Source of the DNA: Eledone cirrhosa
Lineage: Eukaryota
Direction: 5' to 3'
Assembly (NCBI GenBank): GCA_964016885.1
Contig: OZ024742.1
Location: 313,100,001 to 313,164,000 of the forward strand
DNA length: 64,000 bases
In this document: positions 8,891 through 63,297 of the stretch, piece by piece
Position numbering within the stretch: the stretch's first letter is position 1
Layout: each line of letters begins with the position of its first letter
Translations under genes and position numbers: made by a program
Notes under the pieces: generated by a model
What the model was told of the DNA's origin: nothing
Database searches by the model: none
Seen by the model: the letters and a program-made list of their open reading frames with translations, nothing else

Positions 8891-9316
8891 GGCACTACAA
8901 CGCTATTAGCTGTCATATTTGTTGGTGAAAAAAATTTGATTATAAAACTTAAATTTATGAATGACTTGTTTTCTACATTGATAACCATGACTTGTTTTCT
9001 AATTAACTTAAATTTGTTTTCTAATTTGGCCCTTTTAAGGGCCACCTATATTTTCATTTAAGTAACTCCACTTACATCGATATGCTTTATAACTAAGTCT
9101 TGTTTTCTATTTGTTTTCTATTTGTTTTCTAATTTGGCCCTTTTAAGTCTTCCCTCTCTCTCTCGTCCCTATCTCTCCTCTTCCCTCTCTCTCTCAAAAA
9201 AAAAAACGCGTGAAAATTCCACTTACGCGTGGTAGTAATACGGAAATAAACGATGTTGACGAGTATCGTCACCGCCTGTTTTCCACTGGACTGACAGCTA
9301 ATAGCGTTGTAATGCC
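8891..9316. mobile_element. MITE with 25-bp terminal inverted repeats
   Basis: GGCACTACAACGCTATTAGCTGTCA / TGACAGCTAATAGCGTTGTAATGCC; no TSD visible. Confidence 0.6.
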
Positions 9317-10620
9317 AAAATGTTTTTACATAAAAAAAAAATGTTCGTACTTGCATGTAAATTGTATAGTAGATAACGTAAAACATTTTTTTACATCAAA
9401 AAATAATAGTTTTGTACTTGACCGATTTAGCTTAAAATGGCTTTTCTAATCTTTTTTCATGCTTAATTTGCTAGTTTTCCATTGTCGCTTATGTTCTTGG
9501 TAAATCAACTGGTTGTATTTTTGTCCCTTATGTCGAGGAACCAAAAACTCAATTCTTGACAATGGACTTAAATCTGCTCCAACCAGGGTTCACAAGTTAT
9601 GTAAATAAAAGTATTAAGTTTTGGTTTTAATTTTTCTAAAAAAACATACTCTTCTTTGTCAATGCGTTTTTTTTTCTTGTGTTGACTGGCAACATTGTTA
9701 GAATGAGAAAACATTGAAATTTGGTAAAGTTCGCCCCCGCATTTCTCTGAATGTTGGTTAAGAATTATCTTTCTCGTGTGTGGGTCTTTGATTTGTTGGT
9801 AGAGAACTGTCATTCTTTGTCGAAGTTTATATCCTGTTTGGCCAAAGTAGCAACTCTTATATTAAGTTAAGTCGAATATTGATACAAATATGTGTTGGAT
9901 AAGAAGATGTTAAAGGAGATATTGTCGGGTGTCGGTGGGTTTGAAATATGTGTCAGTTTCTAGCCTTTTGTTTTGTTTTGTTATTAGTGTGTCTAAGAAT
10001 GGAAGGGAAGTTTTTCATTGCTGAAATCCATAGTGAATTGGATGTTAGGGTTCGTATTTTTGGTGACTGTTTGAAATTTCTTTAGTGTAAGATGTTCTCT
10101 CCACAAAATATAACAGTCATCCAGGTATCTTTTCCAGTTTCCTTTTATATAACAACTGAATTCGCTCACATAAATTTGTGAAGTGTGTTTGTTGATTTAT
10201 AATTCGTGGTATCCTATGACTAACTTGGTGTATGTTGGTGCTACTTTTGTACAGATTGACTATTCTTGACTTTTGTCGGTAGGCTTTTTCGTCGAACATG
10301 AAGTAATTGTTTTTTTAAAATAAATTGAAGACCGTTTATAATGAAATTTTTGTCAATACGGTTTGGTAGTTGATAGAGGAATGTTGTGAGCCAATATTTG
10401 AATACCTCGATTCTGAGCAACTGGCTTTGCAATCTGCACCTCATGATAAAGAAACTATACCTAAAAAATATTGGTTTGCTGACTCTCAAGAAAAATATGG
10501 TGGCATATATAACTAAGTTCATGTTGGAATTTCTTATGTTAGCACATACCTGTGTAGCTAGAGAAACATTTTTTTTTCATTTCTTAATAACATAAACGTT
10601 TTAACGTCTGCTTTTCCTGT
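9317..10620 (-). mobile_element. Degenerate Penelope-like element (RT + GIY-YIG remnants)
   Basis: NYFMFDEKAYRQ, DDCYILW, FLDTLI..TDTYFKPT and GQTGYKLRQRM...FLEKLKPKLN. Confidence 0.75.
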
Positions 10621-11149: not shown

Positions 11150-11700
11150 AACAAAAAGAATGACAGTTCACCACCAACAAATCAAAGACCCATACATAAA
11201 AAAGATAATTCTTAACCAACATTCAGAGGAATGCAAAGGGTAAACTTTGCCAAATTTCAATGCCTTCCCATTCTACCAATGTTGCCAGTCAACATTAGAG
11301 AAAAAAACACATTGGTTAAGAAAAGTATGTTATTTTTTTTTAGAATAATTTAAACCAAAACTTAATGCACATAACCTATGATCCCTGGTCGGAGCAGATT
11401 TACGTCCCTTGTCGTCAAGAATTTGAGTTTTTTTCCTCGATATAAGGGGCAAAAAGAACAACCAGTTGCATCCGTTGTTTATAAATGACAATAACATTAC
11501 AAATGGAAAACTAGCAAATTAAGCATGAAAAAGTTTTGAAAAGCCGTTTTAAGCAAAACCGGTTAAGTACAAAACTATTATTTTTTTATGTAAAAAAATG
11601 TTTCACGTTGTCTGCAATGCACGTTACATGTAAGTACAAAAACTTTCTGTTTATGTAAAAAAACTTTTTTTCCCGTTTTGCACTATTCTAGTGATAAAGA
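11150..11700 (+). mobile_element. Penelope-like 3' end, inverted relative to 9317-9820
   Basis: RMTVHHQQIKDP..IILNQHSEEC and downstream sequence match the reverse complement of 9320-9820. Confidence 0.75.
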
Positions 11701-11712
11701 AGAAAACTATTC

Positions 11713-12502
11713 GGCGATATCCAATTTTAGCTGTCTAAATGCCGCTTACTTGCTGCAGTTGCTGCTTACTTCAATGTATGAGGCTATTCCAACAAATTTA
11801 CATTCCCCTTTTTTTTAGCCGTTAAAAGAAATATAGATTTTTTTTTTTTTTGTGTGTGTGTGATTTATTTGCCACTGGGGCATAGATTTCTTTATTTGCC
11901 CCTTTTTTATTTGTTTTTTTTTTTTGCGATTTATTAGCCTTTTGGGGTCACACACACACTCGTAGAAAGTGTGCGACCTTTCTGCCAGGGAGTACAGAGA
12001 GAGGGGGGTGCTCCCTTCTTCTCTTACCTGTACAAGCCGATATAGAGAGAGAGATGGCCCACTTACACGGGCCATTATTGCTACTTTCACCCGAAAAAGG
12101 CACTCAGTCCCAGCCAATTCCATGAAAGATGGGTGAAAGTAGCAATAATGGCCCGTGTTAGTGGGCCATCTCTCTATATCGGCTTGTACAGGTAAGAGAA
12201 GGGAGCACCCCCCTCTCTCTGTACTCCCTGGCAGAAAGGTCGCACACTTTCTACGGGGGCGTGTGTGACCCCAAAAGGCTAATAAATCGCAAAAAAAACA
12301 AACAAACAAAAAAGGGGCAAATAAAGAAATCTATGCCCCAGTGGCAAATAAATCGCAAAAAAATAAAAATAAATAAATCTATATTTCTTTTAACGGCTAA
12401 AAAAAGGGGGAATGTAAATTTGTTGGAATAGCCTCATACATTGAAGTAAGCAGCAACTGCAGCAAGTAAGCGGCATTTAGACAGCTAAAATTGGATATCG
12501 CC
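11713..12502. mobile_element. Foldback/MITE-type DNA element, ~380-bp arms, 38-bp loop, 8-bp TSD (Merlin- or Mutator-like ends)
   Basis: GGCGATATCC...GGATATCGCC termini; AACTATTC at 11705-11712 and 12503-12510; arms 11713-12092 and 12131-12502. Confidence 0.9.
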
Positions 12503-12596
12503 AACTATTCTTTTTGATGTAAAAAAAAATGATTTCGTTGTTTACTATACTCGTAATATGTAGGTAGAAAGCGAAAGATTTGCCTAAAACCTGCCT

Positions 12597-12838
12597 GTGA
12601 AGACATATGGCTTAGTAGTTAGAGCGTCGGGCTTACGATCATGAGGTTGTGAGCTCGATTCTTGGATGGGCTTTCCATTGTGTTCTTGAGCAAGACTCTT
12701 TATTTCATGTTGCACCAGTTCACTCAGCTGTAGAAATGAGTTGCGACGTCACTGGTGCCAAGCTGTATCGGCATTTTCCTTCCTTTGGACAACATCGGTG
12801 GCGTGGAGAACGGAGACTGGTATGCATGGGCGACTCGT
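12597..12838 (+). mobile_element. tRNA-head CORE-type SINE (second family)
   Basis: TGGCTTAGTAG A box, GCTCGATTC B box, TTCTTGAGCAAGAC core. Confidence 0.7.
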
Positions 12839-35081: not shown

Positions 35082-35257
35082 ATATTTCTATATATAAATA
35101 TATATATGTATACAAATATATATATGTATATAAATATATATATGTATATAAATATATATATATATGTATATAAATATATGTATATAAATATATATATATA
35201 TGTATATATATATATATGTATATAAATATATATATATATGTATATAAGTATATATAT
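34893..35257. repeat. (TA)n-rich microsatellite
   Basis: Direct reading. Confidence 0.95.
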
Positions 35258-37115
35258 CATCATCATCATCATCATCAGGTTTAGCGTCCGTGTTCCACGC
35301 TTGCATGGGTTTGGACGGGGGTTTTCCCACTTGAGGCAAGAGTGGTTGTCTTGCTCGCATAGGACTGTCTGGCGGGTTTTCTACAGTTGGATGCCCTTCC
35401 TAACACCAACCACATTTACAGTGTGGGGCTGGGAGGTTTTTACCGTGTTGCCTACACGGCCACATTACAGCGTGGACTGTCTGGCGGGTTTTCTACAGCT
35501 GGATGCCCTTCCTAACACCAACCACATTTACAGTGTGGGGCTGGGAGGTTTTTACCGTGTTGCCTACACGGCCACATTTACAGCGTGGACTGTGTGTTTT
35601 TTGTCGTGACACCTACACGATCTCATTTGTTTCGGCCTGGATGTTGTGGGACCAACATAACTTTACATTGAAAGGGGCGGTGTGGGTGGGGTGGAGGTGG
35701 TGGGACGGGGGTGTGTTTTGATAGAGATGCCTACTGACTGTAGTAGGTTTTTACTTTGTATTTAGGTAAGGCGGGTCTTCTCTATTACTGAGTACCGCCA
35801 AAGGTCTCGGTCCAGTGACATTGTCTTGGAGAGGTGTAAGCGTGTGAGGTCGGAATTTATCAGCTCGTCCCATGTTTTTCTGGGTCTGCCTACTCCGTGG
35901 CTACCGTCTATCTTTATTGCCCTGCACTTTGTTATACAGCTGTCGTCTTTCATGCGCATCACGTGACCGTACCAACGTAGCCTTCTCTCGAGTAAACAAC
36001 ATCTGATCCCTCATATTTCTAATTTTTTCCTTAGTTCGTTTATGCTTTGCCGTTCACGTATATTACTATTGCACATCCAGCAGAGCATCCAAGCTTCGTT
36101 CCTCTCTAGTCTGCGTATATCCTCTGCACACAATGCCCAGGTCTCACTGCCATGCAGCATTGCTGTTCGTATGCAGGCATCGTATAACCTGCCTTTCATT
36201 TTTAGGGAGAACCCTCTAGCGGCTAATAGTGGTATAAGCTCTCTGAACTTTTTCCATCCAGTTCTGACTCTAGCTACTGTACTTTCAGAGCACCCTCCCC
36301 CACTGCTGATTTTGTCACCCAGGTAACGGAAGCTGTCCACTATTTCTATAGAACCCTCTGCGCAGTTGAAGGAGCTAGTATTTTGTGGGCACTTGCTGCT
36401 ACTTATTGCACCAGAGCACCGGCCACATGTAAAATCTATGTTCTTAGTTAGCTTACCTGTGATCCCACTACATCTTTTATGAACCCATACTTTGCATTTG
36501 GGACATAAAATGGAGTTTCTACCTACGCCTTTCCTACACACTGAGCATGGCCATTTCCCAGATGGGACTGCCGCCTTATTTTCTTTCCTACAAACTAGAA
36601 CTTTAGTCTTAGCCAGGTTAATTTTAAGGCCTTTTGATTCTAAGCCGTGCTTCCATGTTTGGAATTTCTTCTCTAGTTCGGTCATTGATTCAGCTATGAG
36701 CGTTAGATCATCTGCGTGTAGGAGTTCCCATGGGCAGCCGGTCTTGAATCCTCTGTTATAGCCTGAAGGGCAATAATAAATAGTAGGGGGCTAAGAACAG
36801 AGCCCTGATGGACACCAACTTTTACGCTAAACTCTTCACTATATTCGTTGTTAATTCTAACCTTACTGACTGTTTCTTTATACATGGCTTGTATAGCTCT
36901 CACAAGCCATTCGTCAACACCTAGTTTTCTAAGAGCCCACCAGATAATGGAACGGGGGACTCTGTCGAAGGCTTTCTCCAAGTCGACGAAAGCTAAGTAT
37001 AGGGGTTTACTTTTAGCTAGGTACTTCTCCTGTAGTTGTCGTACAATGAAAAGAGCGTCTGTGGTACTTTTGCCTGACACAAACACGAACTGCATTTCAT
37101 CTAGATCGATTCTAC
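35258..37115 (-). mobile_element. 5'-truncated RTE-clade LINE: RT with embedded PHD-like finger, 3' UTR, (GAT)n tail
   Basis: RQLQEKY, FVDLEKAFD, GVHQGSVLSP, YADD (frameshifted), C4HC3 pattern, FRYLG, WYGHV. Confidence 0.92.
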
Positions 37116-37209
37116 ATGTATTTATATATATGTGTATATATATATATATCTTCATCATTTTATGTCCACTCTTCATTTTATGTCCACATTTTATGTCCAC
37201 ATTTTATGT

Positions 37210-37669
37210 TTACACCCCCGTCCCACCACCCCCACCCCATCCACACCGCCCCTTTCAATGTAAAGTTATGTTGGTGCCACAAAATCCAGGCCGAAACAAA
37301 TGAGATCGTGTAGGTGTCACGACAAAAAAACACACAGTCCACGCTGTAATGTGACCGTGTAGGCAACACGGTAAAAACGTCCCAGTCCCACACTGTAAAT
37401 GTGGTTGGTGTTAGGAAGGGCACCCAGCTGTAGAAAACCTGCCAGACAGTCCACGCTGTAATGTGGCCGTGTAGGCAACACGGTAAAAACCTCCCAGCCC
37501 CACACTGTAAATGTGGTTGGTGTTAGGAAGGGCATCCAACTGTAGAAAACCCGCCAGACAGTCCTATGCGAGCAAGACAACCACTCTTGCCTCAAGTGGG
37601 AAAACTCCCGTCCAAACCCATGCAAGCATGGAACACGGACGTTAAACGATGATGATGATGATGATGATG
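37210..37669 (+). mobile_element. RTE 3' UTR/tail copy inverted relative to 35258-35715
   Basis: Reverse-complement match, including the same internal ~115-bp duplication. Confidence 0.88.
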
Positions 37670-37726
<57 letters not shown>

Positions 37727-38867: not shown

Positions 38868-41800
38868 TGAAGGCACATAGCCTAGAAGTTAGGGCTAGGC
38901 TCATGATTATATGGTCATAGGTTCAGTTCCCAGACAGTGTGATGTGTTGAGTCCTTGAACATGAAACTTCCTTTCTCACTGCTCTAGTTTATTTAGCTGA
39001 AAATGAGTACCAGCAACGGCTTAGGGTTAGCTCTGCAATAGACTGGCACTCCATCCAAGGGTTAGTGCTACAACAGGCTGGCTCTCCTTCCAAGGGTTAG
39101 CTCTACAACAGGCTGGCTCTCCTTCCAAGGATTAGCTCTACAACAGACTGGCTCTCCATAAAAGGGCTAGCTCAATAACAGACTGGCTCCCAATCCAAAG
39201 GCTAGCTCTACAACAGACTGGCTCTCCATCCAAAGGCTAGCTCTACAACAGACTGGCTCTCCATCCAAAGGCTAGCTCTACAACAGACTGGCTCTCCATC
39301 CAAAGGCTAGCTCTACAACAGACTGGCTCTCCATCCAAAGGCTAGCTCTACAACAGACTGGCTCTCCATAAAAGGGCTAGCTCTACAACAGACTGGCTCT
39401 CCATCCAAAGGCTAGCTCTACAACAGACTGGCTCTCCATCCAAAGGCTAGCTCTACAACAGACTGGCTCTCCATCCAAAGGCTTGCTCTACAACAGACTG
39501 GCTCTCCATAAAAGGGCTAGCTCTATAACAGACTGGCTCTCCATCAAAGGGCTAGCTCTACAACAGACTGGCTCTCCATCCAAAGGCTAGCTCTACAACA
39601 GACTGGCTCTCCTTCCAAAGGCTAGCTCTACAACAGACTGGCTCTCCATCCAAAGGCTAGCTCTAAAACAGACTGGCTCTCCATCCAAAGGCTAGCTCTA
39701 CAACAGACTGACTCTCCATCCAAAGGCTAGCTCTACAACAGACTGGCTCTCCATAAAAGGGCTAGCTCTATAACAGACTGGCTCTCCATCAAAGGGCTAG
39801 CTCTACAACAGACTGGCTCTCCATCCAAAGGCTAGCTCTACAACAGACTGGCTCTCCTTCCAAAGGCTAGCTCTACAACAGACTGGCTCTCCATCCAAAG
39901 GCTAGCTCTAAAACAGACTGGCTCTCCATCCAAAGGCTAGCTCTACAACAGACTGACTCTCCATCCAAAGGCTAGCTCTACAACAGACTGGCTCTCCATA
40001 AAAGGGCTAGCTCTATAACAGACTGGCTCTCCATCAAAGGGCTAGCTCTACAACAGACTGGCTCTCCATCCAAAGGCTAGCTCTACAACAGACTGGCTCT
40101 CCTTCCAAAGGCTAGCTCTACAACAGACTGGCTCTCCATCCAAAGGCTAGCTCTATAACAGACTGGCTCTCCATCCAAAGGCTAGCTCTACAACAGACTG
40201 GCTCTCCATCCAAAGGCTAGCTCTACAACAGACTGGCTCTCCATCCAAAGGCTAGCTCTACAACAGACTGGCTCTCCATAAAAGGGCTAGCTCTACAACA
40301 GACTGGCACTCCATCCAAAGGCTAGCTCTACAACAGACTGGCTCTCCATCCAAAGGCTAGCTCTACAACAGACTGGCTCTCCATAAAAGGGCTAGCTCTA
40401 CAACAGACTGACTCTCCATCCAAAGGCTAGCTCTACAACAGACTGGCTCGCCATCCAAAGGCTAGCTCTACAACAGACTGGCTCTCCATCCAAGAGATAG
40501 CCCTACAACAGACTGGCTCTCCATCCAAAGGCTAGCTCTACAACAGACTGACTCTCCATCCAAAGGCTAGCTCTACAACAGACTGGCTCTCCATAAAAGG
40601 GCTAGCTCTACAACAGACTGACTCTCCATCCAAAGGCTAGCTCTATAACAGACTGGCTCTCCATCCAAAGGCTAGCTCTACAACAGACTGACTCTCAATC
40701 CAAAGGCTAGCTCTACAACAGACTGACTCTCCATCCAAAGGCTAGCTCTACAACAGACTGGCTCTCCATCCAAGAGCTAGCTCTATAACAGACTGGCTCT
40801 CCATCCAAGGGCTAGCTCTACAACAGACTGACTCTCCATCCAAGGGCTAGCTCTACAACAGACTGGCTCTCCATCCAAAGGCTAGCTCTACAACAGACTG
40901 GCTCTCCATCCAAAGGTTAGCTCTACAACAGACTGACTCTCCATCCAAAGGCTAGCTCTACAACAGACTGACTCTCCATCCAATGGTTAGCTCTACAACA
41001 GACTGGCTCTCCATCCAAAGGTTAGCTCTACAACAGACTGACTCTCCATCCAAAGGCTAGCTCTATAACAGACTGGCTCTCCATCCAAAGGCTAGCTCTA
41101 CAACAGACTGACTCTCCATCCAAGGGCTAGCTCTACAACAGACTGGCTCTCCATCCAAAGGCTAGCTCTATAACAGACTGGCTCTCCATCCAAAGGCTAG
41201 CTCTATAACAGACTGGCTCTCCATCCAAAGGTTAGCTCTACAACAGACTGGCTCTCCATCCAAAGGCTAGCTCTACAACAGACTGGCTCTCCATCCAAAG
41301 GCTAGCTCTATAACAGACTGGCTCTCCATCCAAAGGCTAGCTCTATAACAGACTGGCTCTCCATCCAAAGGCTAGCTCTATAACAGACTGGCTCTCCATC
41401 CAAAGGCTAGCTCTATAACAGACTGGCTCTCCATCCAAAGGCTAGTTCTATAACAGACTGGCTCTCCATAAAAGGGTTAGCTCTACAACAGATTGGCTCT
41501 CCATCCAATGGCTAGCTCTACAACAGACTGGCTCTCCATCCAAAGGCTAGCTCTACAACAGACTGGCTCTCTATCCAAGAGCTAGCTCTACAACAGACTG
41601 GCTCTCTATCCAAGAGCTAGCTCTACAACAGACTGACTCTCCATCCAAAGGCGAGCTCTACAACAGACTGGCTCTCCATAAAAGGGTTAGCTCTACAACA
41701 GATTGGCTCTCCATCCAATGGCTAGCTCTACAACAGACTGGCTCTCCATCCAAAGGCTAGCTCTACAACAGACTGGCTCTCTATCCAAGAGCTAGCTCTA

Positions 41801-44800
41801 TAACAGACTGGCTCTCCATCCAAAGGCTAGTTCTATAACAGACTGGCTCTCCATCCAAAGGCTAGGTCTACAACAGACTGACTCTCCATCCAAAGGCGAG
41901 CTCTACAACAGACTGGCTCTCCATAAAAGGGTTAGCTCTACAACAGATTGGCTCACCATCCAAAGGCTAGCTCTACAACAGACTGGCTCTCCATCCAAAG
42001 GCTAGCTCTACAACAGACTGGCTCTCCATCCAAAGGTTAGCTCTACAACAGACTGGCTCGCCATCCAAAGGCTAGCTCTACAACAGACTGGCTCTCCATC
42101 CAAGAGCTAGCTCTATAACAGACTGGCTCTCCATCAAAGGGCTAGCTCTACAACAGACTGGCTCTCCATCCAAAGGCTAGCTCTACAACAGACTGGCTCT
42201 CCATCCAAAGGCTAGCTCTACAACAGACTGGCTCTCCATCCAAAGGCTAGCTCTACAACAGACTGGCTCTCCATCCAAAGGTTAGCTCTACAACAGACTG
42301 GCTCTCCATCCAAAGGCTAGCTCTACAACAGACTGGCTCTCCATCCAAGAGCTAGCTCTACAACAGACTGGCTCTCCATCCAAAGGTTAGCTCTACAACT
42401 GACTGGCTCTCCATCCAAAGGCTAGCTCTACAACAGACTGGCTCTCCATCCAAAGGCTAGCTCTACAACAGACTGGCTCTCCATCCAAAGGTTAGCTCTA
42501 CAACAGACTGGCTCTCCATCCAAAGGCTAGCTCTACAACAGACTGGCTCTCCATCCAAAGGTTAGCTCAACAACAGACTGGCTCTCCATCCAAAGGCTAG
42601 CTCTACAACAGACTGGCTCTCCATCCAAAGGCTAGCTCTACAACAGACTGGCTCTCCATCCAAAGGTTAGCTCAACAACAGACTGGCTCTCCATCCAAAG
42701 GCTAGCTCTACAACAGACTGGCTCTCCATCCAAAGGCTAGCTCTACAACAGACTGGCTCTCCATAAAAGGGCTAGCTCTACAACAGACTGGCTCTCCATC
42801 CAAAGGTTAGCTCTACAACAGACTGGCTCTCCATCCAAAGGCTAGCTCTACAACAGACTGGCTCTCCATCCAAAGGTTAGCTCAACAACAGACTGGCTCT
42901 CCATCCAAAGGCTAGCTCTGCAACAGACTGGCTCTCCATCCAAGAGCTAGCTCTACAACAGACTGGCTCTCCATCCAAAGGCTAGCTCTATAACAGACTG
43001 GCTCTCCATCCAAAGGCTAGCTCAACAACAGACTGGCCCTCCATCCAAGGGCTAGCTCTATAACAGACTGGCTCTCCATCCAAAGGCTAGCTCTACAACA
43101 GACTGGCTCTCCATCCAAAGGCTAGCTCTATAACAGACTGGCTCTCCATCCAAAGGCTTGCTCTATAACAGACTGGCTCTCCATCCAAAGGCTAGCTCTA
43201 CAACAGACTGGCTCTCCATCCAAAGGTTAGCTCTACAACAGACTGGCTCTCTATCCAAGAGCTAGCTCTACAACAGACTGGCTCTCCATCCAAAGGCTAG
43301 CTCTACAACAGACTGGCTCTCCATCCAAAGGCTAGCTCTACAACAGACTGGCTCTCTATCCAATGGCTAGCTCTACAACAGACTGGCTCTCCATCCAAAG
43401 GCTAGCTCTACAACAGACTGGCTCTCCATAAAAGGGCTAGCTCTACAACAGACTGGCTCTCCATCCAAGAGCTAGCTCTACAACAGACTGGCTCTCCATC
43501 CAAAGGCTAGCTCTACAACAGACTGGCTCTCCATCCAAAGGCTAGCTCTACAACAGACTGGCTCTCCATCCAAAGGCTAGCTCTACAACAGACTGGCTCT
43601 CCATAAAAGGGCTAGCTCTACAACAGACTGGCTCTCCATCCAAGAGCTAGCTCTACAACAGACTGGCTCTCCATAAAAGGGCTAGCTCTACAACAGACTG
43701 GCTCTCCATCCAAGAGCTAGCTCTACAACAGACTGGCTCTCCATCCAAAGGCTAGCTCTACAACAGACTGGCTCTCCATCCAAAGGCTAGCTCTACAACA
43801 GACTGGCTCTCCATCCAAAGGCTAGCTCTACAACAGACTGGCTCTCCATCCAAAGGCTAGCTCTACAACAGACTGGCTCTCCATCCAAGAGCTAGCTCTA
43901 CAACAGACTGGCTCTCCATCCAAAGGTTAGCTCTACAACAGACTGGCTCTCCATCCAAAGGCTAGCTCTACAACAGACTGGCTCTCCATCCAAAGGCTAG
44001 CTCTATAACAGACTGGCTCTCCATCCAAAGGCTAGCTCTACAACAGACTGGCTCTCCATCCAAAGGCTAGCTCTGCAACAGACTGGCTCTCCATCCAAAG
44101 GCTAGCTCTGCAACAGACTGGCTCTCCATCCAAAGGTTAGCTCTACAACAGACTGGCTCTCCATCCAAAGGTTAGCTCTACAACAGACTGGCTCTCCATC
44201 CAAAGGTTAGCTCTACAACAGACTGGTTCTCCATCCAAAGGCTAGCTCTACAACAGACTGGCTCTCCATCCAAGGGCTAGCTCTACAACAGACTGGCTCT
44301 CCATCCAAAGGCTAGCTCTACAACAGACTGGCTCTCCATCCAAAGGTTAGCTCTACAACAGACTGGCTCTCCATCCAAAGGTTAGCTCTACAACAGACTG
44401 GCTCTCCATCCAAAGGCTAGCTCTACAACAGACTGGCTCTCCATCCAAAGGCTAGCTCTATAACAGACTGGCTCTCCATCCAAAGGTTAGCTCTACAACT
44501 AACTGGCTCTCCATCCAAAGGCTAGCTCTATAACAGACTGGCTCTCCATCCAAAGGTTAGCTCTACAACTGACTGGCTCTCCATCCAAAGGCTAGCTCGA
44601 TAACAGACTGGCTCTCCATCCAAAGGTTAGCTCTACAACTGACTGGCTCTCCATCCAAAGGCTAGCTCTATAACAGACTGGCTCTCCATCCAAAGGCTAG
44701 CTCGATAACAGACTGGCTCTCCATCCAAAGGTTAGCTCTACAACTGACTGGCTCTCCATCCAAAGGCTAGCTCTACAACTGACTGGCTCTCCATCCAAAG

Positions 44801-47800
44801 GCTAGCTCTATAACAGACTGGCTCTCCATCCAAAGGTTAGCTCTACAACTGACTGGCTCTCCATCCAAAGGCTAGCTCTGCAACAGACTGGCTCTCCATC
44901 CAAGAGCTAGCTCTACAACAGACTGGCTCTCCATCCAAAGGCTAGCTCAACAACAGACTGGCCCTCCATCCAAGGGCTAGCTCTATAACAGACTGGCTCG
45001 CCATCCAAAGGCTAGCTCTACAACAGACTGGCTCTCCATCCAAAGGCTAGCTCTACAACAGACTGGCTCTCCATCCAAAGGCTAGCTCTATAACAGACTG
45101 GCTCTCCATCCAAAGGCTAGCTCTACAACAGACGGGCTCTCCATCCAAAGGTTAGCTCTACAACAGACTGGCTCCCTATCCAAGAGCTAGCTCTACAACA
45201 GACTGGCTCTCCATCCAAAGGCTAGCTCTACAACAGACTGGCTCTCCATCCAAAGGCTAGCTCTACAACAGACTGGCTCTCCATCCAAAGGCTAGCTCTA
45301 CAACAGACTGGCTCTCCATCCAAAGGCTAGCTCTACAACAGACTGGCTCTCTATCCAATGGCTAGCTCTACAACAGACTGGCTCTCCATCCAAAGGCTAG
45401 CTCTACAACAGACTGGCTCTCCATCCAAAGGCTAGCTCTATAACAGACTGGCTCTCCATCCAAAGGCTAGCTCTATAACAGACTGGCTCTCCATCCAAAG
45501 TCTAGCTCTACAACAGACTGGCTCTCCATCCAAAGGCTAGCTCTATAACAGACTGGCTCTCCATCCAAAGGCTAGCTCTACAACAGACTGGCTCTCCATC
45601 CAAAGGCTAGCTCTATAACAGACTGGCTCTCCATCCAAGGGCTAGCTCTACAACAGACTGGCTCTCCATCCAAGGGCTAGCTCTATAACAGACTGGCTCT
45701 CCATCCAAAGGCTAGCTCTACAACAGACTGGCTCTACATCCAAGGGCTAGCTCTACAACAGACTGGCTCTCCATCCAAGGGCTAGCTCTACAACAGACTG
45801 GCTCTCCATCCAAAGGTTAGCTCTACAACAGACTGGCTCTCCATCCAAAGGTTAGCTCTACAACAGACTGACTCTCCATCCAAAGGTTAGCTCTATAACA
45901 GACTGGCTCTCAATCCAAAGGCTAGCTCTACAACAGACTGGCTCTCCATCCAAAGGCTAGCTCTACAACAGACTTACTCTCCATCCAAAGGTTAGCTCTA
46001 CAACAGACTGGCTCTCCATCCAAGGGCTAGCTCTACAACAGACTGGCTCTCCTTCCAAAGGCTAGCTCTACAACAGACTAGCTCTCCATCCAAAGGCTAG
46101 CTCTACAACAGACTGACTCTCCATCCAAAGGTTAGCTCTATAACAGACTGGCTCTCCATCCAAAGGCTAGCTCTACAACAGACTAGCTCTCCATCCAAAG
46201 GCTAGCTCTACAACAGACTTACTCTCCACCCAAAGGTTAGCTCTACAACAGACTGGCTCTCCATCCAAAGGCTAGCTCTACAACAGACTTACTCTCCATC
46301 CAAAGGCTAGCTCTATAACAGACTGGCTCTCCATCCAAAGGCTAGCTCTATAACAGACTGGCTCTCCATCCAAAGGCTAGCTCTATAACAGACTGGCTCT
46401 CCATCCAAAGGCTAGTTCTATAACAGACTGGCTCTCCATAAAAGGGTTAGCTCTACAACAGATTGGCTCTCCATCCAATGGCTAGCTCTACAACAGACTG
46501 GCTCTCCATCCAAAGGTTAGCTCTACAACAGACTGACTCTCCATCCAAAGGTTAGCTCTATAACAGACTGGCTCTCAATCCAAAGGCTAGCTCTACAACA
46601 GACTGGCTCTCCATCCAAAGGCTAGCTCTACAACAGACTTACTCTCCATCCAAAGGTTAGCTCTACAACAGACTGGCTCTCCATCCAAAGGCTAGCTCTA
46701 CAACAGACTAGCTCTCCATCCAAAGGCTAGCTCTACAACAGACTTACTCTCCACCCAAAGGTTAGCTCTACAACAGACTGGCTCTCCATCCAAAGGCTAG
46801 CTCTACAACAGACTTACTCTCCATCCAAAGGCTAGCTCTACAACAGACTGGCTCTCTATCCAAGAGCTAGCTCTATAACAGACTGGCTCTCCATCCAAAG
46901 GCTAGCTCTACAACAGACTGACTCTCCATCCAAAGGTTAGCTCTACAACAGACTGGCTCTCCATCCAAAGGTTAGCTCTACAACAGACTGACTCTCCATC
47001 CAAAGGTTAACTCTATAACAGACTGGCTCTCCATCCAAAGGCTAGCTCTACAACAGACTGACTCTCCATCCAAAGGTTAGCTCTACAACAGACTGGCTCT
47101 CCATCCAAAGGTTAGCTCTACAACAGACTGACTCTCCATCCAAAGGTTAGCTCTATAACAGACTGACTCTCCATCCAAAGGTTAGCTCTATAACAGACTG
47201 GCTCTCCATCCAAAGGCTAGCTCTACAACAGACTGACTCTCCATCCAAAGGTTAGCTCTACAACAGACTGTCTCTCCATCCAAATGTTAGCTCTACAACA
47301 GACTGACTCTCCATCCAAAGGTTAGCTCTATAACAGACTGACTCTCCATCCAAAGGTTAGCTCTATAACAGACTGGCTCTCCATCCAAAGGCTAGCTCTA
47401 CAACAGACTAACTCTCCATCCAGAGGTTAGCTCTACAACAGACTGGCTCTCCATCCAAAGGTTAGCTCTACAACAGACTGGCTCTCTATCCAAAGGTTAG
47501 CTCTACAACAGACTGACTCTCCATCCAAAGGTTAGCTCTATAACAGACTGACTCTCCATCCAAAGGTTAGCTCTATAACAGACTGGCTCTCCATCCAAAG
47601 GCTAGCTCTACAACAGACTGACTCTCCATCCAAAGGTTAGCTCTACAACAGACTGGCTCTCCATCCAAAGGTTAGCTCTACAACAGACTGACTCTCCATC
47701 CAAAGGTTAGCTCTTTAACAGACTGGCTCTCCATCCAAAGGCTAGCTCTACAACAGACTGACTCTCCATCCAAAGGTTAGCTCTTTAACAGACTGGCTCT

Positions 47801-48030
47801 CCATCCAAAGGCTAGCTCTACAACAGACTGACTCTCCATCCAAAGGTTAGCTCTACAACAGACTGGCTCTCCATCCAAAGGTTAGCTCTACAACAGACTG
47901 ACTCTCCATCCAAAGGTTTGTTCTATAACAGACTAGCTCTCCATCCAAGGGTTAGTGTTGTGCCCTTGGTTTAATGCCTATGAAATTAGAATAAGCTCCG
48001 TGCTTCATCCTGTTTGGGAAAACACAAGTA
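38868..48030 (+). mobile_element. tRNA-head CORE-type SINE split by amplification of an internal 35-bp segment
   Basis: Head and core at 38868-39060; remainder (ATAAGCTCCG...) resumes after 47955. Confidence 0.65.
39025..47955. repeat. 35-bp satellite, ~255 copies, consensus GCTAGCTCTACAACAGACTGGCTCTCCATCCAAAG
   Basis: Direct reading; constant unit length, point variants only, no spacers. Confidence 0.98.
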
Positions 48031-52983: not shown

Positions 52984-53739
52984 GTTAATGTATATAAATA
53001 TATGTTTGTGCATATATAAATATATATATATATACACACACACATAAAAGCTCTAAATACATGCATACATAGGTGTATGCATGTATGCATAATATGTTAG
53101 AATTGATAACTTCATTCTTTCTTTTCTCATACACAGCCTATTGCTATATACATAGGCAAAAATGCACATACATATACCAGTACATATATACGCACATGGG
53201 AATATATGTATTTGAGAATGTGTCATATATATAAACCTCTATATATACATGTGTACAGCACCAAATACACATTTTACATATCATTATAGAAACAACTACT
53301 TGCATCCCTATGTTTATACAGCAATCTTCACTGCTGCCTAGCAATATTTCCCTAAATTACATGGTGAAGTAATAAAAACACTTTATTTACGACACCCAAG
53401 CAACTTTAGCTTTCTATTTTGCTGGTATAACAAAGAATAACGCAGAATCAATGAGATGTCAAGGTGATTGGAATTGAAAAGAAAGACTAACAAAAGAATG
53501 GGTTCAGGAAATATTCAAGAATGGTGAAATTATCAAAATTGGGAGAAATATGAAGTGATATAGAGTTAAATAGATCTAACAATAGAGAGATAGAGATATA
53601 GAGTGTCATTTAGATGACTGAGAGATAGAAAGTTAGATATATGTAGTTATAGATAGAGAGTTATAGAAATGGAATAATAGAGATGAAATGATAGAGAATT
53701 AGATAAGTCTTGTTATATATAGAGAGTTATATAAAAAGA

Positions 53740-54312
53740 ATTGATAGATAGAGAGTTATATAGAAGGAATTGATAGATAGAGAGTTAGATGTTGTGATAG
53801 AGTTATATAGACGGAATTGATAGATAGAGAGTTTAGATGTTGTGATAGAGAGTTATATAGAAGGAATTGATAGATAGAGAGTTAGATGTTGTGATAGAGT
53901 TATATAGAAGGAATTGATAGATAGAGAGTTAGATGTTGTGATAGAGAGTTATATAGAAGGAATTGATAGATAGAGAGTTAGATGTTGTGATAGAGTTATA
54001 TAGACGGAATTGATAGATAGAGAGTTTAGATGTTGTGATAGAGAGTTATATAGAAGGAATTGATAGATAGAGAGTTAGATGTTGTGATAGAGAGTTATAT
54101 AGAAGGAATTGATAGATAGAGAGTTAGATGTTGTGATAGAGAGTTATATAGACGGAATTGATAGATAGAGAGTTAGATGTTGTGATAGAGAGTTATATAG
54201 ACAGAATTGATAGATAGAGAGTTTAGATGTTGTGATAGAGAGTTATATAGAAGGAATTGATAGATAGAGAGTTAGATGTTGTGATAGAGAGTTATATAGA
54301 TGTTGTGATAGA
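53740..54312. repeat. ~49-bp GATA-rich minisatellite (~12 copies)
   Basis: ATAGATAGAGAGTTAGATGTTGTGATAGAGAGTTATATAGAAGGAATTG. Confidence 0.92.
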
Positions 54313-54520
54313 TAGGTAGACAGTTAAATAGATGTAGTGTTAAACAGATAGAGAGACATAAATGAAATGACAGATACAGAATTAAATAGATGTTGTGGTG
54401 ATAGATAGAGAGTTATAAAGATGCAGTGATATATAGAGAATTAAATAGGTGTAGTGAGAGTTAGAGAGTTATATAGATGAAGTCAAAGCTAGAGAGTTAG
54501 ATAGATGTAATGATAGATAG

Positions 54521-55292: not shown

Positions 55293-55371
55293 TGAGAGAA
55301 AGTTAGATAGATGAAGTGATAGATTGAGAATTAAATAGATGTAGTGATAGAGTTAAATAGATGTAGAGATA

Positions 55372-56682: not shown

Positions 56683-56684
56683 GT

Positions 56685-58482: not shown

Positions 58483-58746
58483 TGTTTCTTTTATTTGCCA
58501 CCAGGGCATCAAAAGTGGGACAAGTACAAAGGGGGGAGTTTACAAAACAAGGCGTCCTCAATAAGGAGGAGGCAATAACAATATATAAAAATAAAATAAA
58601 ATATAACAAAAAATAAAATTTATAACAAAGTCCTCAATAGAGAGGAGGCGCCTTGGGGGGTTGCACACACCCCCGAAAAAAGTGTGCAACCCTTCTCCTC
58701 AGGAGCACAGAGAAGGGGTGCTCCCTTGGTCTTTCATCTTCCTCAC

Positions 58747-61700
58747 CTATAGTCTGATGTAGAGTGAAGGCCCATTCACACGGGCCATTCTCGCCACTTT
58801 CACCCATCTTTCATAGAAACAGCTGGGGTGCAGCACCTCTCTCTTCATCCTGATCCTTCTTCCGAAATGATATCGGAAGAAACGGACCAGTTGTTGGCCA
58901 GAGAGAAAGGTGTCTGACCTCAGTCCTTTCAGACGCGTCCACCATACAACCTCTTTCGCCATGGCTATTACGCACAGAAACACCGCCTCTCCTTCGTTTT
59001 TGAAGAGGGGAGGCGGCTTGATCGTTACAATAGACTCGGTGGTCAACCGGATCGGTCCCACCCTTGACAACAGTTGTTCGACATAGCCCCACAGATCGGC
59101 AATGCCCGAGCAGTGTACCAATGTGTGTGCAACGGTTTCCTCGTCGCACACGCATCTGGGACAGACCTTTTTCGATGGGTCCCTACCCGGGCGCCCGTGT
59201 CTGTAGAGCCTTTCTCGAACGGGCAGAGCCCTTCTGTAGCATTGCCAGGCCAGGGACCTCTGGAAGTTATCCATGGGTCCTGGGCTGAATGTCCTACCGA
59301 ACAGGTTGGCCAGTCGTCTTCCTCCATGCCTAGGGCTTCTCCGAGGGCGTCGTCGCACCTGCTAACCACCAGCCCTCTATAGAATGACGAGGTGGATTCT
59401 CCACTGACAGCCGGGTCCACCTGCCAGAGAGCCGTGAGCGCCTGGGCACACTCGGTGTGCCAGGCGCCCAGTTTTCTCGGTCTTTGCTTGACCCAGGATT
59501 GCAGCTCGGTGAGTGAGACGAGTCTGGGAAAGGCTCGCCTCACAAACGGGGCCCACACCGGTTGACCGGAGAGGAATACCTGAAGGTGCCGTAGCCTTAA
59601 TGCGTGTTTACGTATCATCAGCCACGGCATCCCCAGCCCTCCTTTCGAAGGGTGTTGACAGCAGATGGATCTCCTCACCATAGGAGCCCGCCTCTTCCAA
59701 AGGAATTGGAAGAGTGCGCGCTCCATTTTGGCGAGCGTTTCCCTTGGGCAAGGCACCACGGTCAGGCGGTAGTAGATGACGGACGCTATATAAGTGTTCG
59801 CCACCTCCGCCCGACCTTTCAGGGACAGTTTGCACTCGGCCCACTTCTGGGCCAGTGCAAACACCCTGCTCGTCACCTCACCCCAGTTCTTCTCCACCTG
59901 GAGGTCTGGTCTGAACCAGATCCCGAGCAATTTCACCGGGCCCTCCGTCCAGTGCCCGACGACGCCATCGGAGGGCATCGATCTGCCCCTCCACGTGCCG
60001 AGTTGCAGACCGATCGACTTGTCCCGGTTCAGCTTAGCCCCTGTAAACCTTTCGTACTCCTCCAGTAAGGTGCCGATCGCCCCGATTTCCGAGGCCGTCG
60101 ACACCATTACTGTTACGTCATCGGCGTAGGCTGACACCGCTTTCCGCAATCCCGGTTCCAACGGGATGCCCTGCAACAACTCCAACTTCCGCAGTAGTAG
60201 CTCTAGAGTCACTACATACAGAAGGGAGGAGAGAGGGCACCCCTGTCGGATGGACCGCGCGATTTCGAACGGCTCCGAGAGGTAGCCGTTCACCTTGACC
60301 CTAGAGCAGATGCGGCTGCTGTGCATAGCAGTGATCCAGCCCCTGAAAACGGGTCCGAAGCCTGCCGCCGCTAGCACCGCATCCAGGTAACCATGGTCGA
60401 CCCTATCGAATGCCTTAGATTGATCCAAGTTGATCAGGGCCCCACCAAAGCCGGGTTCGTTCCCAACCCTCTCTATGATGTATCGCATGAGGTGGAGGTT
60501 ATCGTGGATGGACCTGGACGGGATAGCACATGTCTGCGCATCTCCCACCAGGTTGCCCACGACAAGCGCCAACCTCTTTGCTAGCACCTTGGCCAAAATC
60601 TGTAACTCTGTATTTAGCAGAGTTATAGGCCTGAAATTATTTATATCGTCCCCCTTGTTCTCGTCCTTCCTCACTAGCGTGACTACGCCCTTGGTCACAG
60701 CACAGGGAATTCTCCCGTTCTGTTGCCAGTTGCAGTAGACCGCCTCGAGGAGTTCGGGGAACAAGTCCGGCATAGCTAGATATAGTTCGTATGGAAGACC
60801 ATCGAGACCTGGGGATTTGCGTTTGCCGCATTGGCTCAGCACGTCCTCTATCTCAGCGGCTGAAATCGGCTCCTCGCAGGACTTCGCCTCCCTGTCCGAG
60901 AGACGCGGCAGGCCGTCGAGGTATGGACCGAAGTCCACGTCCCCAACCGGCCCCCCGCCCCTTCCGAAGAATTCGGCAAAGTGCTTTTGAAAAGCCTCGC
61001 ACATCTGCTTAGGTTCAAGGATCACCCGTCCATCCTGGTCTCGCAAAGACCGGATAGTGGATCTGCTCCCTCTTTTGGCTTCTGTCACGCGGGCCCAGCT
61101 AACAGCTTTGGTCCCCTCGTTTCCCAGAGCACGTATTTTGCTTCGGACGATGCAGCCTTCGTGTTTCGCGTCGAAGAACTGGCCCAGGGCCGTTCTCGAC
61201 GCTAGCACTCTGGCCACGTCGCCGCTTCTAATTGCCTCTTCTACACTATCTACCAACTCCCTTTCCTTCCTATTTCTATTGGAGGCTAACTCCTTACTAA
61301 ATTCTATAGAGACTACTCTAATCTCTCTTTTGAGAGATCCCCACCACCTGCTGTTGACGATGGCGCCCGTCAACCGCTCCTTAACTAAAGTGCTAATCCG
61401 GTTCCTGTAAGCCTTACTTGCCGGTAAGGACAAGTTGAGCTTCCAGTAACCGGGTCCCTGTCTATGAGTTCTGTCAAGGTTGACCATGCAGGTCACTAAT
61501 TTGTGGTCTGAATAGCCAACCATGCGCATTTTTGGACAACTTAAAAAGTCCTTATCCTTAATTCTAACTAAGAACCTATCTAGGTATGACCTAGATGTTC
61601 CGCTACGATTTGCCCAAGTCCAGGTTGGCGCAGTCGGAAAATCTAGTCGATATCTATCGGCCAGGTCAAATCGACCGATTAACCCTTTGAGGCTATTACA

Positions 61701-62183
61701 CCCCTCTCTATCGGGACAGGCCCCTACGTAGTCCCAGCGTGCATCTAGGATACCATTCCAGTCCCCCACTAATAGCAAGGAGCGGGACGTCCCCAGAAAA
61801 GTCTCCAGACGATGGAAGAAGTCCGGCCGCATTGACCCGAAAGGGTCGTAGGCGGCTACCAACCTAAACGCTCCGCCTTTACCACTGCCAAGGTCCAGAA
61901 CCACTAGTCGACCCTCCGGGTCCAAATGTACCATCTGTGTTGCGAGACCCAGATGTTTTTGCAGCAGAACGACAACTCCACCCCCACCTTCGGGCTGACA
62001 GAGAGATGCGTGCATCTCAAAGTCATCAAAGGTGGGGGCCAGCTGTCGCACGTTGCTGATCCGGGCCTTGCAAATAACCATCACATCTATACGTTGTGAC
62101 CTGAGGTCATTTAGAAGCATTGCTTGCTTCCAAGTTGAGCCCAGGCCACGCGCATTTAAACAGCCTACTCTTAGCATAGCCAT
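58747..62183 (-). pseudogene. Tx1 ORF2: APE endonuclease, RT, C-terminal CCHC; one frameshift near 59315
   Basis: LNARGL, GDWN, LDRF, SDH; SPGLDGLP, RPITLLN, LDQSKAFD, RQGCPLS, YADD; CPRC..ETVAHTLVHC in the shifted frame. Confidence 0.93.
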
Positions 62184-62207
62184 GTTGGTGGTGAAGAGAA
62201 AAGGCAC

Positions 62208-63287
62208 TTACCTCTCTGCGTCCCGGGTATCGGGCTGCACAATTTCCATTAGGGTGGGGGATGGGTTGTTGGGTGGGGTGGTGGTTTGTGGAAGTGTAGG
62301 GGCATCAGTGTGTTGTGTGGTTGGGGAGCTTGGAGTTGTGTGGGTGTTTGGGGAGGGGGTGGGATAGTTTTTTAGGAGGACGCGGTTAATGGGCCCGACG
62401 CAGGGGGGACCCACGTCCTCTTTAAAATTGTCTTTTAAAGTTTTATAGGTGTCCTGTGGGGCCTTAATCATTTTGAGGTGGGGGAAATCCCCTGCCTGAG
62501 TGAAGTTAGGCCCTTGTGTGTTTATTAGATTGTTGTTGTACACAATGTTTAACAGTTTTTTGTTTCTTGTGTTTATGTATGTGTATGCATGTTTTTGTTT
62601 TTGTGTGGTGTTTTTTGTTTGCTGTTGTTGTGAGCTCTTTTGTGTTGGTGTCAGTGTTATGTTTTGGGGAGGGGTTGTTTTCATTTGTGTGTCTGAGGTG
62701 TGTTTTCTTTTTTTTCTTTTGATTGTGTGGAAGTGCTCCTCCTCGTCTGACGACGAACTAGGGTCATCTTCCGCGTTGGAGGGGAGGGGTATATTTTCGG
62801 GTTGTGTTTGCGGTACGGGTGTTTTGGAAATTGTTTTTGTTTTTTGAGTGGAGGGGATGGGTTGGACATTGTTTTGTTTTGGTTTGAGCTGTGGTGGTTG
62901 TTTTTGTAGTGGTAGTTGTGGTGATTGTGTTGGTTGTGCAGTTGTTGGTGGTGTAGGCAGGATTGGGGTTTTCTTATTAAGTTGGGGACAGACAGCCCTC
63001 AGGTGACCTCTGGTTCCGCAGAGGTAACACGAGGGCCGTCTACCCTCAACGGTAATGTTGATGAAGGTTAGATCATCCAGTATGACGCGTTCAGGGATCT
63101 GGGCGATCCTTTCGGGCCTCATTTGAACTACAAGTTCGAGGCTCGTTCCACTGAACGCGTCACCCGATGCCTTTCCCATGGACACCAGCATGTCATCCTC
63201 CAGGTCCAGAAAACCTGTCAAAACCCACCATATGTCCATAATCGGCAGGATGGTGTGGATTTTTATTTTTTGTGTTCTTCTACCCAT
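62208..63287 (-). CDS. Tx1 ORF1 (gag-like zinc-knuckle protein), probably 5'-truncated
   Basis: CYLCGTRGHLRAVC knuckle followed by a P/Q/T/K-rich region, directly upstream of ORF2. Confidence 0.8.
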   Translation of the reverse strand: MGRRTQKIKIHTILPIMDIWWVLTGFLDLEDDMLVSMGKASGDAFSGTSLELVVQMRPERIAQIPERVILDDLTFINITVEGRRPSCYLCGTRGHLRAVCPQLNKKTPILPTPPTTAQPTQSPQLPLQKQPPQLKPKQNNVQPIPSTQKTKTISKTPVPQTQPENIPLPSNAEDDPSSSSDEEEHFHTIKRKKRKHTSDTQMKTTPPQNITLTPTQKSSQQQQTKNTTQKQKHAYTYINTRNKKLLNIVYNNNLINTQGPNFTQAGDFPHLKMIKAPQDTYKTLKDNFKEDVGPPCVGPINRVLLKNYPTPSPNTHTTPSSPTTQHTDAPTLPQTTTPPNNPSPTLMEIVQPDTRDAER

Positions 63288-63297
63288 GTACGTAGGG

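What the first reader, a model, noticed from the sequence alone, without database searches (positions are those of the whole stretch)
11713..12502. Foldback DNA transposon carrying an inverted duplication of the Tx1 LINE 3' end: a mobile hairpin matching a retrotransposon
Seen: a 790-bp palindrome with GGCG..CGCC ends and an 8-bp TSD, so it inserted as a unit. The outer ~130 bp of each arm is TIR-like. The inner part (~11864-12352, including the loop) is Tx1 sequence: the + strand reads KALSPSQFHERWVKVAIMARVSGPSLYIGLYR* versus EVLHPSCFYERWVKVARMARVNGPSLYIRL in the 58-63 kb ORF2, followed by the 3' UTR hairpins and the GCAAATAAAGAAA terminus. Known: inverted-repeat transposon derivatives such as maize Mu killer make hairpin RNA that silences their family in trans. 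Inference: a LINE end was captured and copied into both arms, so read-through would give ~380 bp of dsRNA against the segment shared by all Tx1 copies, spread by a DNA transposase. It would also be a strong ADAR substrate.
Basis: partly seen in the sequence, partly recalled or inferred. Interest (0 to 1): 0.82.

Follow-up and report, generated by a model that had tools for sequence, protein, structure and literature searches.

The report
DNA transposon with LINE-built hairpin arms
This is a 790-base mirror-image jumping element whose long arms include two copies of a retrotransposon's tail, likely joined head to head in one insertion accident and then likely spread to about a hundred places by a cut-and-paste enzyme; nothing here shows that it silences the retrotransposon.

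Summary
The palindrome (arms 380 and 372 bp, 38-nt loop), the 8-bp target duplication and the Tx1/L1-type core are real. A paralogous empty site has one copy of the 8-mer. Public data from a related or identical animal show the same fold-back junction at about 70-200 times the depth of single ends, and the same terminus with other flanks. So it is very likely a multi-copy, non-coding cut-and-paste family (Merlin-like ends, partner not found), neither an artefact nor a one-off. Only 149 of 372 bp per arm is continuous Tx1 sequence. It is about 74% like the nearest Tx1 and gives no perfect 21-mer to 5 Tx1 ends in the window. Best reading: two 5'-truncated Tx1 ends were joined head to head inside a small TIR element during retrotransposition (two-sided priming or fold-back), and a transposase amplified the product. 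A second head-to-head LINE-end pair lies at 35.3-37.7 kb. Mu-killer-like silencing is unsupported: no RNA data, poor match to most Tx1, and molluscs (the likely host group) are reported to lack the endo-siRNA proteins. ADAR editing is likely wherever a copy is transcribed. New variant of a known kind; interest 0.5.

The parts
11705..11712 (+). left copy of the 8-bp target-site duplication AACTATTC
   Evidence: paralogous empty site has one copy
11713..11824 (+). left terminal inverted repeat proper (about 112 bp), starts GGCGATATCC; sub-repeats GCTTACTT x2 and TTTTAGC x2
   Evidence: no Tx1 similarity
11825..11936 (-). left copy of the A-rich linker with two to three tandem Tx1-terminus-like motifs
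11937..12092 (-). left, inverted copy of the Tx1 ORF2 end and first part of the 3' UTR
12093..12130 (+). 38-nt loop: unduplicated Tx1 ORF2 sequence; head-to-head junction at 12092|12093, no microhomology visible against window Tx1 copies
   Evidence: contig record 1 of run X1 spans 12093-12160 with no other letters over the 66 laid
12094..12195 (+). last 33 codons and stop of a Tx1/L1-type ORF2
12131..12279 (+). right copy of the Tx1 ORF2 end and first part of the 3' UTR (149 bp of stem)
12280..12390 (+). A-rich linker with tandem terminus-like motifs (GGCAAATAAA at 12316 and 12343), two of them followed by TCTAT; T-rich Tx1 UTR absent
12391..12502 (-). right terminal inverted repeat proper
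   Evidence: same end at 12502 with other flanks in runs X1 and X11
12503..12510 (+). right copy of the target-site duplication
11155..11704 (+). host repeat (Penelope-like 3' part, label from recalled motifs) into whose third 66-bp unit the element inserted; unit resumes at 12511-12562
   Evidence: 81% to 9317-9818 inverted; translation and unit alignment
58483..63297 (-). nearest Tx1/L1-type relative in the window (zinc-knuckle ORF1 piece; endonuclease, RT, zf-RVT), inside a 28-bp TCTA-rich minisatellite; a relative, not the donor (74%)

Best explanation
This is a non-coding cut-and-paste element, likely one of about a hundred copies and likely moved by a Merlin- or Mutator-type transposase, whose centre is two shortened Tx1 LINE ends joined head to head, likely made in a single retrotransposition event. 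Shown: palindrome, 8-bp duplication, Tx1 core with both 3' ends pointing outwards and ending at TCTAT, the motif that also begins the satellite units into which Tx1 copies in this window are inserted. Inferred step 1: a Tx1 endonuclease cut a small TIR element about 110 bp from its end. Inferred step 2: either both strands of a symmetric target in a palindromic parent primed reverse transcription and the two truncated cDNAs were joined at their 5' ends, or one primed end folded back and copied itself and the adjoining TIR. Inferred step 3: the two intact ends let a transposase in trans amplify the product. It most likely has no host function; copies that lie in transcripts would form about 370 bp of double-stranded RNA and would likely be edited by ADAR.
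For: TSD and paralogous empty site. Run X1 holds a 68-nt contig from 12093 to 12160 at depth 1422; 12160 is exactly where a 31-mer graph must break if the arm is shared with an inverted copy. Bin arithmetic needs 1,536-2,006 depth crossing the junction, starting near 12064 (predicted 12063-12065); without crossing, the bin would be at most 3,804 against 4,341 observed. Five X1 contigs that hold the TIR end have depth 10-22 (median 13), giving about 70-200 copy-equivalents. Inner TIR depth 3,812 is about twice the junction depth, as two arms per loop predict. Other flanks begin exactly after 12502 in X11 (64 reads, one start) and in an X1 contig that runs on into Tx1-UTR sequence. About 3 raw reads of X11 cross the junction by bin arithmetic; none in X10. 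Three left-arm/right-arm differences are alleles in X1 (12196 indel 71%, 12260 90%, 12406 81%), so they are not read errors. A second LINE-end pair, 3' ends out, 444 of 460 identical, lies in a symmetric (TA)n tract at 35257-37670. Tx1-clade elements are known to target DNA transposons and simple repeats (PMC4494074, passages). L1 insertion makes fold-backs and inverted duplications in human cells (10.1101/2024.12.14.628481, passages).
Against: No genome is held, so no second full copy with both flanks was seen. The A-rich linker 12286-12391 was skipped as a repeat, so no read or contig links TIR to core directly. The tool warns that contig depth is no copy number; depths at 12223 and 12260 (about 6,000) are 3-4 times the junction depth, which I explain by contig overlap or a residual source subfamily but did not prove. 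Organism A may not be the window's species: share of words 0.31, flank uncovered at 12580-12610, and G at 12223 in all X1 depth where the window has A. Run X4 (organism B) shows only the Tx1 ORF end (2 contigs). No parent element, no transposase. The A at 12223 in both arms of this copy suggests arm-to-arm copying, which is the rival mechanism.
Confidence: 0.6

Rival explanations
1. Same family, but the arms grew later: one ordinary Tx1 insertion in a TIR element, then template switching or conversion between the ends copied it into the other arm and deleted the centre, as in Galileo copies with recruited TIR sequence; or aberrant transposition made the duplication, as for Mu killer.
For: Both arms share A at 12223 where X1 has G at 6,025 of 6,025 depth, X10 in 6 of 6 and X11 in 15 of 16 reads, which suggests arm-to-arm copying (or a lineage-specific subfamily). 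Galileo recruits internal sequence into its TIRs (PMC3573991, passages). Both arms share the same rearranged terminus.
Against: No parent-derived internal sequence is left: the loop is pure Tx1 and abuts the inverted copy. The window holds a second head-to-head LINE-end pair with no TIRs at all.
Confidence: 0.27
2. A mobile silencer: copies in transcribed regions make hairpin RNA that yields small RNAs, or heavy editing, which lowers Tx1 activity in trans.
For: Very stable predicted hairpin. Likely about a hundred copies, so some may lie in transcripts. The piRNA pathway is present in molluscs (PMC11114477, passages). Coleoid editing is directed at repeats and proposed to curb retrotransposons (PMC9068888, passages).
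Against: 0 of 390 21-mers match any of 5 window Tx1 ends perfectly. The main Tx1 population differs at several sites in the 37 bp of stem that it shares. DICER2 and siRNA Argonautes are reported lost in molluscs, though the authors allow processing by the miRNA machinery (PMC11114477, passages). No host-gene domain among 148 of the ORFs scanned in 1-35 kb.
Confidence: 0.1
3. A one-off local rearrangement or an assembly artefact.
For: Single copy in the window. No full second copy was seen. Most arm differences lie in simple repeats, where read errors gather.
Against: TSD with a paralogous empty site; junction-shaped contig at depth 1422 and other flanks in independent runs; arm differences are alleles in X1.
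Confidence: 0.05

Closest known systems
Tx1L in Tx1D of Xenopus and Tx1-Mar/SINEU in Mariner-N4_AMi of crocodilians (PMC4494074, passages)
   Same: A Tx1-clade retrotransposon inside a non-autonomous DNA transposon.
   Different: There the LINE sits once, as a repeated target-specific insertion. Here two truncated ends lie head to head, form much of the inverted arms, and one junction appears amplified.
Galileo extended-TIR (2RT) copies of Drosophila mojavensis (PMC3573991, passages)
   Same: Non-autonomous copies made almost wholly of long arms, lengthened by inverted duplication of inner sequence.
   Different: Galileo recruits its own sequence, is P-type with 7-bp TSD; here the recruited sequence comes from a class I element and the TSD is 8 bp.
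Mu killer of maize (PMC3440606, passages)
   Same: Inverted duplication ending in two like TIRs; a hairpin if transcribed.
   Different: Mu killer is one locus, co-linear with its own target MuDR, and shown to silence it. This element is likely multi-copy, matches another class of element at about 74%, and no transcript or silencing is shown.
Multicopy Pack-TIRs such as Ssk-FB4 (PMC8277862, passages)
   Same: Foreign sequence between long TIRs, spread by later transposition.
   Different: Those carry one copy of a host-gene piece; here the cargo is a LINE end, duplicated into the arms.
L1-induced fold-backs and inverted duplications in human cells (10.1101/2024.12.14.628481, passages)
   Same: Truncated LINE at a fold-back junction, 3' end at the target site, some junctions without homology.
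   Different: Those are somatic and often destabilise chromosomes; here the product is small, inherited and likely transposed further.
Merlin superfamily (PMC8101967, passages)
   Same: Terminal GG, TIR within 24-462 bp, 8-bp TSD, internal repeats; Merlin families are annotated in Octopus vulgaris, 2 recently active (PMC13282606, first third of text and supplement search).
   Different: No transposase or autonomous partner was found; Mutator and P-type ends are not excluded.

Membership tests
Merlin (non-autonomous) | TIR of 24-462 bp with terminal 5'-GG | tested here: met
   GGCG start, about 112 bp proper, 372-380 bp with core; definition from PMC8101967
Merlin (non-autonomous) | 8- or 9-bp TSD | tested here: met
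   AACTATTC
Merlin (non-autonomous) | partner with the same TIR and a DDE_Tnp_IS1595 transposase | not testable with these tools
   no genome; TIR scans empty or chance
Mutator/Foldback | long TIRs with internal sub-repeats | tested here: met
   a longer sub-repeat variant in X10
Mutator/Foldback | TSD of about 9-11 bp | tested here: inconclusive
   8 bp here; FB4 has 9-10 bp; an 8-bp lower bound for some MULEs is recalled, not from a call
hAT | 8-bp TSD with short TIRs starting (C/T)A(A/G)NG (recalled) | tested here: not met
   TSD fits, terminus GGCGA does not
Multicopy Pack-TIR | same chimeric structure at several sites with different TSDs | tested here: inconclusive
   junction at high depth and other one-sided flanks; no second full copy seen
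Multicopy Pack-TIR | captured host-gene sequence | tested here: not met
   cargo is LINE sequence
Mu killer-type silencer | near-identity to the element that it silences | tested here: not met
   74% to nearest window Tx1; 0 of 390 perfect 21-mers; a rarer, closer source subfamily is not excluded
Mu killer-type silencer | transcribed, small RNAs made, target silenced in trans | not testable with these tools
   no RNA run was available to lay
Tx1 clade (source of the core) | endonuclease-RT-zf-RVT ORF2 and zinc-knuckle ORF1 | tested here: met
   Pfam PF03372, PF00078, PF13966; CCHC knuckle
Tx1 clade (source of the core) | target-sequence preference | tested here: met
   three termini at 54.5, 55.4 and 58.5 kb run into TCTA-rich satellite; the long copy has it on both sides; the copy at 18.9 kb ends in (ATT)n instead
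Tx1 clade (source of the core) | RT phylogeny with named Tx1 references | not tested
   homologues are almost all unnamed

The most novel reading that the evidence does not exclude
A retrotransposition accident built the long arms of a new foldback DNA transposon, and a transposase then scattered about a hundred LINE-matching hairpins that feed piRNA production or ADAR editing against Tx1: a mobile silencer that crosses from one class of element to the other. The first half alone (LINE priming as a way to make a foldback family) is much more likely, about 0.5.
Probability: 0.1. Interest if true: 0.85.

Novelty: new variant of a known kind. Interest (0 to 1): 0.5.

Why it matters
How foldback elements and MITEs get their long arms is usually put down to deletion or conversion of the transposon's own sequence. 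Here a LINE appears to have supplied much of the arms, and the junction looks like an inherited, amplified version of the L1 fold-back and inverted-duplication events so far described in human cells. The parent family should still be in the genome, so two-sided priming, fold-back and later conversion can be told apart by one genome search. If the host is an octopus, about a hundred dispersed near-perfect 370-bp hairpins are also a ready test set for ADAR editing of repeats and for what a mollusc without DICER2 does with long double-stranded RNA. I found no description of such an element in three literature searches or in the O. vulgaris repeat paper (first third of the text; one supplement searched); repeat libraries such as Repbase and Dfam could not be searched and may hold it unnamed.

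Tried and rejected
Whole genome: none held. TIR scans: 0 hits in viral contigs, metagenome contigs with a 27-letter pattern and prokaryote genomes; an 18-letter scan gave 16 loci, none extending beyond chance level (7-12 of the next 42 letters). No RNA holder listed; this is no evidence on expression. Loose ends at 12417 and 12492 in X10 and X11 (28-81 reads each, agreement 0.37-0.42) first looked like many flanks; they coincide with AATT sites and are most likely ligation chimeras of the RAD library, so I dropped them. Of 12 runs listed, 4 were laid; the shares of X4-X9 are small and only X4 was laid. The query included a SINE-like flank, so its shares do not measure the element. Left-arm differences as read errors: rejected for three sites. 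Microhomology at the junction: none seen against window Tx1 copies (by eye); the true donor is unknown. Host gene around the element: Pfam on the 148 longest of the non-repetitive ORFs in 1-35 kb (326 passed the filter in the whole window outside 38.9-48 kb) gave only transposon domains and one weak COX2_TM hit that lies in a Tx1 3' UTR and is spurious. Rfam: a MIR169 hit on the hairpin centre (33 bits, cut-off 80) reflects shape only. Earlier findings by sequence and place: none. Cluster look-up gave no names. The bacterial promoter scan is irrelevant. Ricksha as a precedent for retroelement capture is recalled; PMC5753468 (passages) lists it only as MuDR. The host is not identified: named hits with 59% identity are Octopus proteins, but cnidarian hits reach 50-54%, so 'octopus-like' is an inference. 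Supplements of the bioRxiv preprint were not seen.

Full report
Observation. The segment 11713-12502 is a near-perfect palindrome: arms of 380 and 372 nt with 358 matches, 14 mismatches and 8 gap columns, around a 38-nt loop. The outer 96 bp are perfect and only 1 of 277 columns outside low-complexity tracts differs. It folds at -656 kcal/mol as RNA, z -60. AACTATTC lies directly on both sides. The element sits in the third of three ~66-bp units of an older repeat (81% to 9317-9818, inverted; Penelope-like by recalled motifs). With the element and one 8-mer removed, that unit aligns better to its paralogues than with two 8-mers. So the duplication is a true target duplication and the element came in as a unit, recently.

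Anatomy. From each end inwards: about 112 bp unrelated to Tx1, with sub-repeats; about 110 bp of A-rich linker with two to three tandem copies of the Tx1 terminus motif, two of them followed by TCTAT; then the first ~85 nt of the Tx1 3' UTR and the end of ORF2; then the loop, which is unduplicated ORF2 sequence. The LINE pieces point their 3' ends outwards and meet at their truncated 5' ends (12093 and 12131). The T-rich middle of the Tx1 UTR is missing. The best match in the window is the long copy at 58.5-63.3 kb (74% over 181 nt), which has endonuclease, RT and zf-RVT domains and lies in a TCTA-rich 28-bp satellite. It is a relative, not the donor. The UTR part matches 1 of 5 Tx1 ends in the window.

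Is it a family? No genome is held. I laid 4 of 12 listed runs on 12040-12610. In X1 (contigs, organism A) the TIR has depth 7,000-13,000, its inner end 3,812, the core about 6,000 and the flank about 20. A 68-nt contig at depth 1,422 runs from the first loop base to 12160, with no other letters over the 66 laid; 12160 is where a 31-mer graph must break if the arm is shared with an inverted copy. Bin sums need a further 1,536-2,006 depth that crosses the junction and starts about 30 nt into the left arm. Five contigs holding the TIR end have depth 10-22. The ratio gives roughly 70-200 copy-equivalents; the tool warns that depth is no copy number, so this is an order of magnitude. The end at 12502 is followed by other flanks in X11 (64 reads, one start) and in X1 (one contig running into Tx1-UTR sequence, a likely nested insertion). 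About three X11 reads cross the junction by the same arithmetic, none in X10. Limits: the linker 12286-12391 was skipped as a repeat, so TIR and core are tied only by the window copy and by depth ratios; organism A may be a relative (share 0.31; G at 12223 where the window has A); organism B (X4) shows only the Tx1 ORF end. The many loose ends at 12417 and 12492 fall on AATT sites and were dropped as library chimeras. TIR variants at eight or more sites, and a longer sub-repeat form, show a wider, older TIR family.

Origin. Tx1-clade elements are known to prefer simple repeats and DNA transposons as targets (PMC4494074, passages). The termini here end at TCTAT, as the satellite targets do, which fits target-primed insertion into a small TIR element. 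Two routes then give the head-to-head form in one event. In the first, a symmetric site in a palindromic parent is primed on both strands and the two cDNAs are joined. The window holds a likely example without TIRs: at 35257-37670 two 3' ends of a PHD-bearing LINE, 444 of 460 identical (about 72% to another family copy), face outwards into (TA)n with unrelated outer flanks. In the second, one primed end folds back and copies the TIR, as in L1-induced fold-backs (10.1101/2024.12.14.628481, passages), and the transposase lifts the product out. The rival is later arm extension by conversion, as in Galileo (PMC3573991, passages). The A at 12223/11993 in both arms, against G in nearly all of organism A, suggests that arms do copy from each other. 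I give 0.6 to the one-event origin, 0.27 to later extension. All three origin steps are inferred.

Mobiliser. Terminal GG, 8-bp TSD and long sub-repeated TIRs fit Merlin as defined in PMC8101967 (passages); Merlin, Mutator and L1-Tx1 families are all listed as recently active in O. vulgaris (PMC13282606, first third). No partner was found. My odds: Merlin 0.55, Mutator/Foldback 0.3, other 0.15. The host looks like an octopus from its repeat landscape and named hits, unproven.

Function. The silencing idea is the weak part. Only 149 of 372 bp per arm is continuous Tx1. None of 390 21-mers matches any of 5 window Tx1 ends perfectly; 5 match the best with one mismatch, 10 with up to two. The large Tx1 population in X1 (depth about 136,000) shares only the ORF end and differs at 12141, 12144 and 12146, and the raw reads also differ at 12156-12161. 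Molluscs are reported to have lost DICER2 and siRNA Argonautes but keep piRNAs, and the authors allow processing by the miRNA machinery (PMC11114477, passages). Mu killer is co-linear with its target and shown to act (PMC3440606, passages). No host-gene domain was found near this copy. Editing is directed at repeats in coleoids (PMC9068888, passages), so ADAR action on transcribed copies is likely but untested.

Verdict. A real, young, very likely multi-copy foldback element. Its parts have precedents (Tx1 in DNA transposons, Galileo arm extension, Pack-TIRs, Mu killer geometry), but I found no report of a family whose arms are built from a head-to-head LINE end (searches; repeat databases not searchable). 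New variant of a known kind; interest 0.5.

Noticed in passing
window 35257-37670: Head-to-head pair of a PHD-bearing LINE: a 1.9-kb truncated copy on the minus strand and an inverted 459-bp copy of its own 3' end (444 of 460 identical, sharing a 112-bp internal tandem duplication), both (ATG)n tails facing out into (TA)n, with a short tandem filler at the junction. Likely two-sided priming at a symmetric target.
   Followed up: partly
window 9023-9067 (+): Histone 3' stem-loop at Rfam's gathering score (34 bits, E 6e-7), with a partial second copy near 9130; no histone ORF found upstream by Pfam.
   Followed up: no
window 53544-63998 (-): At least three Tx1/L1-type copies nested in TCTA-rich minisatellites (28-bp and 49-bp units), with the satellite on both sides of the long copy: a target-specific lineage. 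The long ORF2 has a frameshift near 59,350.
   Followed up: partly
window 12503 and run X1/X11 flanks: Three of the four element ends seen with a readable flank are followed by GAA (window left end read outwards, X11 flank, X1 joint), hinting at a target preference; the sample is tiny.
   Followed up: no
window 9317-10400 (-) and 11155-11704 (+): Two inverted, broken Penelope-like pieces (RT end and GIY-YIG-like motif by eye, recalled; no Pfam hit) with a 66-bp tandem unit at the 3' end.
   Followed up: partly
window 39028-47955: 8.9-kb tandem array of a 35-bp unit, 255 copies, 93% matches.
   Followed up: no
run X1, joint 12502 to 12208: One contig (depth 13.9) joins the TIR end to Tx1-UTR sequence at about 12198: likely a family member inserted into another copy's core or into a close Tx1.
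   Followed up: no
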